Below, piece by piece: positions 60,883-63,731 of a stretch of 63,936 nucleotides of DNA. The notes under the pieces were generated by a model, which saw only the letters and a program-made list of their open reading frames with translations, did no database searches and was not told the origin of the DNA. The stretch spans positions 187,457 to 251,392 of the forward strand of contig NW_005201298.1 of assembly GCF_000372725.1 (NCBI RefSeq), in the 5' to 3' direction. The translations under genes were made by a program, and so were the position numbers. This DNA is from Emiliania huxleyi CCMP1516 (Eukaryota). The number at the start of each line of letters is the position of its first letter. The first letter of the stretch is position 1.

Positions 60883-63731
60883 TCATAACTCCTCGTGCTC
60901 CTCGGGCGTGCCGTAAAAGTCTTCGTCGCCCTCCCCGCCGCCCGGCCCGGCGCCCCCCCTGTACTTGCGGAGCAGAGGCTCGACGCTCGAGTCGCGCAGC
61001 TCGGCGAGCCTCTCCTCGAATGGGGCGGGGCTGGACGCCTAACAAAGCACCGAAGGTTCGTCACCTTCTCGCCAAGGAGTCGAGCGAACCGCTCCTCGAC
61101 ATGACGTCGAGTTGCAAACCGGAGGCTAGAGCTCGGCTTTTAGCTTGCGGGGTCCAAGTGTTCAGCTCTTCCGCGCGGGGCGGGAGACGGGCGGGAGACG
61201 GGCCTCGTCGGCGTCGCTGTCCAGCCAGTCGTCGACGAGCTCGAGCGCCTTGTCGATCTCGTCGCGGTGCGCGTCCTCGATCTCGTCGCCCCGCTCCTTG
61301 AGCTCCTTCCGGATCGAGTAGATGTACCCCTCGAGCGCGGCGCGGGCCTAACGCCACCCTCGGTACTCGCACTCTTGCCGATTGGCTGTTGCTACTGGCA
61401 CGCGAGGAGCAGGCCTGCAGCTTGGCCAGCGCCTTCTCGTCCTCTCGCCTGTAGTCCTCCGCCTCGCGCACGAGCCTGTGATCAACTCACTCACTCTCGG
61501 TCATTCGTGGCCAATTCACAGCCCCTCCCGCCCCGCGCCACGGGCCTCTCGATCTCGTCTTGGTTGAGCTTGTCCGAGTTTGTGATTGTAATCTTTGCGT
61601 TGACGCCCGACGTGTGCTCGCGCGCGCTCACAGCGAGGATCCCATTCGCGTCGATGTCAAACGTCACCTGTCATCGGCCCAGGCGGTCAAACTTCCCTCG
61701 GCAACGGCGACGGCGCCGCGCGCGCGACGGCGGACGGACGCCTCGATCTGCGCGGAGCCCTTTGGCATCGGGGGGAAGCCGGAGAGTTCGAACTGGCCGA
61801 GGAGGCGGTTGTCCTGTCATTATGCATGAGCAATTAATCAGCTGACTGATAGCGGGACAGCTCAAATTGGCCGAGGAGGCGGTTGACCCTCGTCAGCTGC
61901 CGTTCTCCCTCGAACACCTTGTTTGAGACGGCCGCCTGGCCGTCCTCTTGGTTGGTGTAGGTCTTGCTCGCGCTCGCCGGCACGACGGTGTTGCGCGGGA
62001 TGACCTGACGCACGAATTCACCAATCAACTAGCGAACGAACTGATGACGAGGAGGACGGCTGTTGCGCGGGATGGCCTTGTCCATCACTCCACCCGTCAC
62101 CTCGAGGCCGAGGGTCAGTGGCGTAACGTCCAGCAGCAGCAGCTCCTCCGTCACCTTGTCGCGCTCTCCGGAGAGAACGCCCGCCTGCACCGCAGCGCCG
62201 TAAGCGACCGCCTCGTCAGCATTGACGGCCGTGCTCGGCTCCTTGCCTATGAAAAAAAGAAAGACGCGCCTCGTATTTCTTTTTTCATAGGCGGCCGTGC
62301 TCGGCTCCTTGCCGTTGAAGAAGTCCTTGAGCAGCTGCCGAACCTTTGGGATGCGAGTCGAGCCGCCGACCAGGACGATCTCGTCCACCTCGCGCTTGCT
62401 CACCCTTGCGTCCGTCAGCACGCGCTGCACCGGTGCAAGGGTCGCCTTGAAGAGGTCCGCACACAGCTCCTCAAACTTGGCGCGGGTCACCGTCTCCGAA
62501 AAGTCTCGCCCCGCCGCGAGCGACTCGACCTCGACGCGCGCAGAACTCTCCGACGACAGCGCGCGCTTCGTCCGCTCCGCCTCGCGCCGCAGCCTCGCCT
62601 TGGCGGAGGGGGAGGTCACCGTCGCGCCGGGGTGCTTCCTTGCGTGCAGGCCGAGCAGGTACTCGACGAGCCGGTTGTCTAGGTCCTCGCCCCCGAGGTG
62701 TGTGTCGCCCGCCGTGGCGAGAACCTGCGGGGGGGGAGGCACTCCCGCCTCATCTCAACCTCACGCACCCTCGCGCAACCTCGCGCACCCTCGCGCAATC
62801 TCGCGCAGTCTCGCGCAATCTCGCGCACTCTCGGCGTCTCCCGCCGCCGGGATCGCCTCGAAGACGCCCGCATCGATGGAGAGGAGCGACACGTCGAACG
62901 TTCCTCCTCCCAAGTCAAACACGAGCACGTTCGCGCCCGAGTCGCTCGAGCGGTCGAGGCCGTACGCGAGCGCCTGGCGAGGCGTCGACAAGTGAATGAG
63001 TCTGCCCGAAGTGATTCATACTAGTTGACAGTATTCATTCATATTCAGCGAGCGCCGCAGCGGTCGGCTCGTTCAGAATCCGCATCACATTCAGCCCAGC
63101 GATGGTGCCGGCGTCCTTGGTCGCCTGGCGCTGCGCGTCGTTGAAGTAGGCGGGGACGGTCACCACCGCGTTGCGCACCTCCTCCCCTAGGAAGGCCTAG
63201 TGTGACGAAACTGATGACGGTGACAACTACAAGATCACGGGTGGCGCCGTCACTTGCCGCGCGGAACGCCTCTGCGACGCCCTTCATCTTCCCGAGCACC
63301 ATCGCCGAGATCTCCTGAGGGAGGAGGCGCTTGGTGGCGCCGCCCGCCGCAACTTCGACCGCGGGCTTGCCCTCCGCCGTCGCCACAACCTTGAACGGCC
63401 AGTGCTCCGCGTCCTTCTGCACCTCCTCGTCACGGAAGCCTCTGCCGATGAGCCGCTTCGCGTCGTAAATCGTGTTTACCGGGTTGAGCGACGACTGCGA
63501 GCGCGCGGCGTCGCCGACCAGCCGCTCGCCGTCGTCGGTGAACGCCACCCACGACGGCGTCACTCGGTTCCCCTGCTCGTTGGCGATGATCTCCACCTTG
63601 CCCTTCCGGTAGACTCCGACGCAGGAATAGGTAGTGCCGAGGTCGATGCCGATGACGGGACCGACGGCCTCCGCCTCCTCGGCGGTCGCCGCCGCGGCGA
63701 GAAGCGGGATGAGCGTTATGAGGAGCCTCAT
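60883..63731 (-). CDS. BiP: ER-luminal Hsp70 (BiP-like), multi-exon
   Basis: Signal peptide, [77 protein letters not shown] and C-terminal HEEL*. Confidence 0.95.

What the first reader, a model, noticed from the sequence alone, without database searches (positions are those of the whole stretch)
62245..62312. Palindromic mini-insert with a 21-nt target duplication forms a BiP intron (introner-like family 2)
GCCTATGAAAAAAAGAAA-GACGCGCCTCGTA-TTTCTTTTTTCATAGGC is a near-perfect inverted repeat. It offers a pyrimidine tract plus CATAG acceptor in either orientation and sits between two copies of CGGCCGTGCTCGGCTCCTTGC. The same CGTATTTCTTTT and TTTCTTTT..CATAG words build the fillers of the 72-nt and 68-nt arrays about 50 kb away. 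It resembles a very small MITE-like insert that can be spliced out on either strand (inference).
Basis: partly seen in the sequence, partly recalled or inferred. Interest (0 to 1): 0.75.

Follow-up and report, generated by a model that had tools for sequence, protein, structure and literature searches.

The report
Algal introns built from exon copies
A small hairpin in a chaperone gene of the bloom-forming alga Emiliania huxleyi sits in a likely intron made of a 22–28-base copy of the next exon plus a short filler shared with other genes; many neighbouring introns are built the same way, which points to a likely retro-copying route for making new introns rather than to a miniature DNA transposon.

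Summary
In detail: a 48-nt hairpin (z −7.4) lies between exact 22-nt direct repeats in an E. huxleyi BiP-type Hsp70 gene, and removing 62247–62312 (GC…AG, minus strand) restores the normal protein. The MITE reading is not supported. The three other loci with the same word carry it as direct copies with no inverted ends, duplication lengths vary, and two sequencing runs show a 65-nt allele whose duplication is 28 nt and whose outer arm is gone. The hairpin is a family member with its first module flipped. The larger result: 10 of 24 introns defined without regard to repeats start with a copy of the downstream exon (p 8e-6), fillers share words between genes, and a metagenome ortholog carries an extra copy-plus-filler unit. 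The filler brings the acceptor and the copied exon gives the donor, which would explain this alga's GC-donor majority. Best mechanism (inferred): target-primed reverse transcription with long variable duplications and twin priming; rival: staggered-break repair. Introner families are already listed for this species, with unknown mechanism. The spliced joint of this intron was not displayed directly, no empty BiP site was seen, and no enzyme was found.

The parts
60883..63731 (-). ER-type Hsp70 (BiP-like) gene, 10 introns, 657 aa when spliced
   Evidence: first exon 100% identical to two E. huxleyi CCMP1516 proteins; 9 of the 10 introns shown as RNA joints
62247..62312 (-). 66-nt intron, GC donor, AG acceptor (an equivalent GA..AG register 62242-62307 gives the same mRNA)
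   Evidence: 95 of 101 Hsp70 hits have the spliced spacing and none the retained spacing; splicing itself only indirectly shown
62226..62247 (-). start of the downstream exon plus the acceptor G: the template of the duplication (extends to 62220 in the X2/X10 allele, 28 nt)
62292..62313 (-). duplicated copy; forms the first 21 nt of the intron and supplies the G|GC donor
62272..62291 (-). first filler module, inverted relative to its orientation in the other family members
62247..62267 (-). second filler module: pyrimidine tract and CATAG acceptor, same orientation as in all family members
62245..62292 (.). hairpin formed by the two modules; predicted to pair the 3' splice site in the pre-mRNA
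11978..12869 (-). 72-nt array in a Ufd2/UBE4-like gene: exon copy plus same-family filler (direct modules), 12 fillers; 2 in ortholog L008
14693..14984 (-). 68-nt array in the same gene region: exon copy plus same-family filler, 4 fillers; 5 in ortholog L009
11791..11884 (-). copy-plus-filler intron at whose acceptor ortholog L008 has an extra 70-nt unit with an unrelated filler
45508..50199 (+). GFAT/GlmS gene, 14 homology-defined introns used as an unselected test set

Best explanation
The segment is likely a young spliceosomal intron, likely made when a short acceptor-carrying template was reverse-transcribed into a staggered cut that duplicated 22-28 bases of exon. Shown in sequence: the intron begins with a copy of the downstream exon, which gives the G|GC donor; the filler gives the pyrimidine tract and AG; the filler is a two-module family word whose first module is flipped here; many introns of the window share the copy-plus-filler build. 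Inferred: target-primed reverse transcription by a non-LTR or Penelope-type enzyme acting in trans, first nick at the future AG|G, second nick about 20-35 nt away; the hairpin would come from twin priming, the second end annealing by a 3-nt ATG/CAT match at the end of module 1; the 28-nt allele would be ancestral and the window's perfect outer arm a later template-switch correction; arrays would arise afterwards by unequal crossover between the direct repeats. That it is an intron made of an exon duplication plus a family filler: about 0.85. That the chemistry is target-primed reverse transcription: about 0.45.
For: Anatomy. Unselected test: 10 of 24 BiP and GFAT introns exceed the 99th percentile of 552 mismatched intron-exon pairs, 14 of 24 the 95th, p 8e-6; the 3' side does not (2 of 24, p 0.08). 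47 duplication loci, 34 with period 60-79; 0 in 3 block shuffles. In 14 of 20 single-unit cases at most 3 nt of the duplication precede the donor, so the filler supplies the acceptor. 19 filler pairs share words of 10 nt or more, against 0-3 in 20 shuffles. The family's 3' end is constant (CATAG then GC in all 4 loci), while 5' ends and duplication lengths vary. 5' module inverted with a 3-nt match at the junction in the X2/X10 allele; this is the build of twin-primed inserts, about 70% of which have 2-5-nt matches (PMC2912911 passages). A second filler family also shows a flipped inner module (29506 against 10464 and 30155). L008 has an extra 29-nt copy plus unrelated filler at an existing acceptor. 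Exonic GGC:GGT is 81:30 and 63:22, and donors are 20 GC, 3 GT, 1 GA of 24, in line with the published 56-65% GC (PMC4028052 passages).
Against: No reverse transcriptase or transposase domain in 40 of 178 window ORFs scanned, no autonomous element or template RNA identified, Rfam 0 hits; no genome was held. No poly(A) tail. Insert sizes cluster at 60-79 nt without the long tail expected from 5' truncation. Duplications (median 28) are longer than the L1/Alu peak of 14-16. The spliced joint of this intron is not among the 15 joints displayed (7 hidden), and RNA run X10 has a contig over the filler (depth 136.6 against 282-288 in the flanks). Both DNA runs laid (X2, X9) carry the insert: no empty site. 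10 of 24 unselected introns show no duplication above the 95th percentile. Twin priming and snap-back repair synthesis leave similar footprints. Which allele is ancestral is not settled.
Confidence: 0.45

Rival explanations
1. Repair of a staggered double-strand break: long overhangs are filled in (the duplication) and a polymerase-theta-like enzyme adds filler by repeated priming on ectopic introns or on itself, direct and snap-back; selection keeps the spliceable ones.
For: Fillers are concatemers: 13 of 33 have an internal direct repeat and 7 of 33 an inverted repeat beyond shuffles. Staggered breaks leave exon repeats at new Daphnia introns (PMC4202315 passages). No element-encoded enzyme is needed, and none was found.
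Against: Daphnia repeats are 4-12 bp. End-joining fillers are usually copied from nearby DNA (recalled), but here the same words recur in unrelated genes 50 kb apart and in L002, with a constant 3' end.
Confidence: 0.3
2. A very small MITE with terminal inverted repeats that can be spliced on either strand.
For: The hairpin is real; introners with TIRs that carry the acceptor and take the donor from the duplication are known.
Against: 0 of 3 other family loci have inverted ends; outer arm not kept in X2 and X10; duplication 22-28 nt against 3-9 bp for such elements; lengths vary between loci.
Confidence: 0.08
3. Plain tandem duplication of exon sequence, the middle then remodelled by slippage, gene conversion among introns and selection for splice signals; no dedicated insertion machinery.
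For: Unit numbers vary between orthologs (12 against 2, 4 against 5); 6 of 20 single-unit cases have longer upstream overlap, as for a duplicated AG|GY site.
Against: Fillers are unlike the flanking exons even where the copy is exact; L008's extra unit has a perfect 29-nt copy with a wholly foreign filler.
Confidence: 0.12
4. The 66 nt are not spliced and add 22 residues to the protein.
For: In frame in this allele (679 aa); an X10 RNA contig covers the filler.
Against: 65 nt in X2, X9 and X10, which truncates at 398 aa; 0 of 101 Hsp70 hits have such an insert; RNA run X14 has no depth on the filler while its flanks are covered.
Confidence: 0.05

Closest known systems
Introner families listed for E. 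huxleyi CCMP1516 (Gozashti 2022, PMC9860276, Suppl. Tables 5-6; Gozashti 2025, PMC12130899, Dataset file 8; table rows seen)
   Same: Same species; repeated intron families; two 2022 families average 70 nt; one 2025 family is marked 'co-opt 5' carry 3''.
   Different: Those rows give TSD/TIR as '?' or 'N', or automatic TSDs of 2-4 nt, and class Unknown (one LTR). No long exon copy is recorded. Their sequences were not seen, so identity with this family is untested.
TIR introners of Aureococcus, Symbiodinium and Polarella (passages)
   Same: Element carries the 3' splice site; 5' splice site recruited from the target duplication; GC donors follow from exon composition.
   Different: Their duplications are fixed at 3-9 nt with inverted ends; here 17-40 nt, variable, inverted ends in 1 of 4 family loci, modular fillers.
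Staggered-break intron gain in Daphnia pulex (PMC4202315, passages)
   Same: Exon-derived direct repeat at the opposite end of a new intron; repeated events at one site.
   Different: 4-12-bp repeats and mostly unknown filler source; here longer copies and shared filler families.
Twin-primed 5'-inverted L1 and trans-mobilised retrocopies (PMC2912911, passages)
   Same: Inverted 5' segment, non-inverted 3' segment, variable duplication, short junction match.
   Different: No poly(A) tail, insert only about 45 nt, longer duplication, no enzyme identified.

Membership tests
MITE / TIR DNA transposon | terminal inverted repeats shared by family copies | tested here: not met
   inverted pair in BiP only; direct modules at 11978, 14693 and L002; outer arm altered in X2, X10
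MITE / TIR DNA transposon | short target duplication of fixed length | tested here: not met
   22 or 28 nt at BiP, 28 and 20 in the arrays, median 28 and range 17-40 over 23 loci
MITE / TIR DNA transposon | partner transposase with matching ends | not testable with these tools
   no genome held; none in 40 window ORFs
Introner (repeated intron-making element) | similar intron sequence in non-homologous genes | tested here: met
   word shared by BiP, the Ufd2-like gene region (2 sites) and L002; similarity is modular, not end to end
Introner (repeated intron-making element) | removed from mRNA without changing the protein | tested here: inconclusive
   protein restored in silico and matches homologs; RNA contigs break at 62247 but the joint is not displayed, and X10 has a retained-looking contig
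Introner (repeated intron-making element) | empty-site allele or ortholog | tested here: inconclusive
   none at BiP in 2 DNA runs; presence/absence of another unit between the window and L008
Non-LTR retroposon insert (TPRT) | variable-length target duplication | tested here: met
Non-LTR retroposon insert (TPRT) | constant 3' end, variable or inverted 5' end | tested here: inconclusive
   fits in 4 loci, but selection for an acceptor could fix the 3' end too
Non-LTR retroposon insert (TPRT) | poly(A) or repeat tail matching an autonomous element with reverse transcriptase | not testable with these tools
   no poly(A); no genome to search; no RT in 40 window ORFs
U2-type spliceosomal intron of E. 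huxleyi | GC/GT donor, pyrimidine tract, AG acceptor | tested here: met
   GC donors are the majority in this species

The most novel reading that the evidence does not exclude
E. huxleyi runs a self-feeding intron factory: excised intron RNAs, whose 3' end is exactly AG, are reverse-transcribed from that end into staggered cuts, so each new intron is the tail of an old one plus a 20-35-nt copy of the host exon that lends the donor. This one process would explain the alga's roughly 70-nt introns, its GC-donor majority, its intronic minisatellite words and stacked units at old acceptors.
Probability: 0.2. Interest if true: 0.9.

Novelty: new variant of a known kind. Interest (0 to 1): 0.62.

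Why it matters
How new introns arise is a long-standing open question. Known introners use 3-9-nt duplications; here a large share of introns in a major bloom alga carry a 20-35-nt copy of the next exon plus a family filler, some differing between orthologs. That gives thousands of datable, pairwise-aligned events per genome, a simple reason for the unexplained GC-AG majority, and a direct test in existing genomes, RNA reads and mutation-accumulation data. It also explains why gene models fail here: both public models of this gene are wrong at this intron. The palindrome itself is a minor variant, though a useful clue to mechanism.

Tried and rejected
No whole genome was held, so the genome-wide motif count could not be run. 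Metagenome scan for the direct two-module form: 11 loci, 3 GC-rich and related (L002, L008, L009, one metagenome), 8 judged chance by composition and context; L001 and L007 gave no BLAST match to the window. That pattern could not find palindromic copies. Viral contigs: hairpin form 20 matches of GC 0.23-0.52, judged chance from the printed context, not tested for duplications; second family 0; 10-mer repeat 1, at a contig end; direct form 0. Rfam 0. Pfam on 40 of 178 ORFs: no RT or transposase. A G[CT]..AG register exists in 38 of 44 duplication loci, but long repeats offer such registers by chance, so I did not count it as evidence. Nucleosome-linker length as the ruler for duplication size is a recalled idea and was not tested; Huff 2016 and Read 2013 were not held. 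Ten paper searches showed no description of long exon copies in E. huxleyi introns; passages in PMC2784329, PMC10290126, PMC13518057, PMC12480563, PMC7486954, PMC11782384 and PMC11282704 had none. Earlier-findings look-ups were empty. Runs X16-X19 held none of the words and were not used.

Full report
Observation. The sequence is as described. An exact 22-nt direct repeat (62226-62247 and 62292-62313) brackets a filler that folds back on itself: -17.8 and -16.0 kcal/mol on the two strands, z -7.4 and -7.0, 0 of 200 shuffles as good. The host gene lies on the minus strand; its first exon is 100% identical to two Emiliania huxleyi CCMP1516 Hsp70 models. With this segment and nine other introns removed it gives 657 residues with a hydrophobic N-terminus and a HEEL end, so 'BiP-like' is fair. 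Of 120 Hsp70 hits, 101 held both anchor motifs; 95 have the spliced spacing and none the retained one. Both public E. huxleyi models are wrong at this place.

Splicing. One read-laying succeeded, on contigs of two RNA runs (X10, X14) and two DNA runs (X2, X9). The nine other introns appear as joints in X10, six of them also in X14, none in DNA. For this intron the joint is not among the 15 displayed (7 hidden). Indirect signs: X10's exon contig ends exactly at 62247, the last base common to spliced and unspliced forms; X14's contig stops matching at 62247 with 17 letters left over, and X14 has no depth at four places in the filler. Against: X10 has one contig over the filler at depth 136.6, against 282-288 in the flanks, where the sampled places in other introns read 0. 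Contigs cannot give levels, and retention, a second allele or an extra unit could each give this. Folding predicts the last 14 intron bases paired at 0.92 here against 0.19-0.47 in five other introns, so poor splicing through a masked acceptor is plausible but untested; retention is common in this species (PMC4028052 passages). A closer look at reads was not obtained, so direct proof is open.

Alleles. X2, X9 and X10 lack one base of the A run, so the insert is 65 nt, and retention would end the protein at 398 residues. X2 and X10 also differ at 62289 and 62291; these two changes lengthen the exon copy to 28 nt and remove the outer arm of the palindrome. The plus-strand 'acceptor' is thus allele-specific. 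Two concerted changes mean either conversion between the direct repeats or template-switch correction of the hairpin. I favour the second, because 28 nt is the median copy length in the window; this is inference. No empty site was seen in the two DNA runs.

The family. The word recurs in the 72-nt and 68-nt arrays and in L002, another gene from a metagenome scan (3 related loci of 11 returned). In all three the filler is module 1 plus linker plus module 2 in direct orientation, ending CATAG before a GC. BiP has module 2 in place and module 1 reversed. Inverted ends are therefore not a family trait, and a duplication of 22-28 nt is outside the 3-9 bp given for TIR introners (PMC9860276 passages). 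The MITE reading fails its defining tests. The scan pattern could not have found other palindromic copies, and no genome was held.

The wider pattern. A scan for non-simple direct repeats gave 47 loci, 34 with period 60-79, against 0 in three block shuffles scanned at periods 55-94. To avoid selection I took 24 introns defined otherwise: 10 of BiP (9 by RNA joints, plus this one) and 14 of a GFAT gene, placed by spliced alignment to six homologs that restores a stop-free protein. In 10 of 24 the intron start matches the downstream exon above the 99th percentile of 552 mismatched pairs, in 14 above the 95th (p 8e-6); intron ends do not match the upstream exon (2 of 24, p 0.08). Four GFAT introns look like merged composites, which lowers the count. 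From the 44 loci printed I chose 27 and a register for each by hand; leaving out 7 arrays, 14 of 20 have at most 3 nt of the copy before the donor, so the filler, not the copy, usually supplies the AG. Among 33 hand-picked intron tails (one off register), 19 pairs share a word of 10 nt or more, against 0-3 in 20 shuffles; 13 have internal direct and 7 internal inverted repeats. Ortholog L008 carries an extra 70-nt unit, a perfect 29-nt exon copy with an unrelated AT-rich filler, at the acceptor of an older intron; the window lacks it. Direction (gain or loss) is not shown. Array sizes differ too: 12 against 2, and 4 against 5. Exons offer GGC about 2.7 times as often as GGT, and 20 of the 24 donors are GC, close to the 56-65% GC reported for the species.

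Mechanism. Shown: copy gives donor, filler gives acceptor, fillers are shared between genes, one module can flip. Inferred: a staggered cut about 20-35 nt wide and a non-local template with a constant 3' end. Target-primed reverse transcription gives variable duplications, constant 3' ends and 5' inversions by twin priming, about 70% with 2-5-nt junction matches (PMC2912911 passages); the 28-nt allele has a 3-nt match exactly there. I put this at 0.45. Staggered-break repair with templated filler (Daphnia, 4-12-bp repeats; PMC4202315 passages) stands at 0.3. No enzyme or template was found, there is no poly(A), and sizes cluster tightly.

What is known. Main texts of the two introner surveys do not mention Emiliania, but their supplements do: five families in 2022 (average length 70, 70, 37, 37, 37; TSD/TIR '?' in four, 'N' in one; 653 copies) and three in 2025 (Unknown or LTR; automatic TSD 2 or 4 nt). 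The 2022 file was cut when stored, two small 2025 files were not searched, and no family sequences were seen. So repeated introns are known for this species; the long exon copy and modular fillers did not appear in ten searches or in the passages read. An earlier unchecked note of this scan reports a 15-nt version in another haptophyte; it is a lead, not support. For every paper cited I saw passages or table rows, not whole texts.

Verdict. Real feature; likely intron; not a MITE; one instance of a widespread copy-plus-filler way of building introns in E. huxleyi. New variant of a known kind, interest 0.62.

Noticed in passing
L008 1-45: The contig ends 5 bases into a sequence that departs from the exon and, with the 2 bases before it, matches the start of the hairpin-family filler; there may be a third stacked unit (copies of about 22, 29 and 35 nt, three filler types) at one acceptor. 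Only 7 bases of evidence.
   Followed up: partly
window 10464-10540, 13932-14090, 29437-29590, 30155-30221: A second filler family built from an 11-nt word in direct and inverted copies; at 29437 its inner module is reversed relative to the others.
   Followed up: partly
window 45508-50199: GFAT/GlmS gene with at least 14 introns, including 88-nt, 60-nt and 72-nt copy-plus-filler arrays and composite introns with several filler types; one likely GA donor.
   Followed up: partly
window 807-962, 14232-14661, 15491-15550, 29622-30062: The same 10-nt word is repeated in many introns, pyrimidine-rich on the sense strand; related 10-11-mers at 39230, 40103, 41196, 47302, 48906, 62756.
   Followed up: partly
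window 22629-22699, 23330-23670: Three clusters of an 11-nt repeat in apparently non-coding DNA, with a 38-nt piece repeated near 23700 and 25220; possibly ends of a non-autonomous element.
   Followed up: no
window 20476-20616: Plain 60-nt tandem duplication with period 70 at the end of a 2OG-Fe(II) oxygenase/WelO5-like ORF; may be the same process with almost no filler.
   Followed up: no
window 60005-60415: 207-nt tandem duplication at the end of an 869-codon open frame with a weak glycosyltransferase hit.
   Followed up: no
L002 1-775: Three introns, all with exon copies; the four units of its array have more divergent fillers than exon parts.
   Followed up: partly
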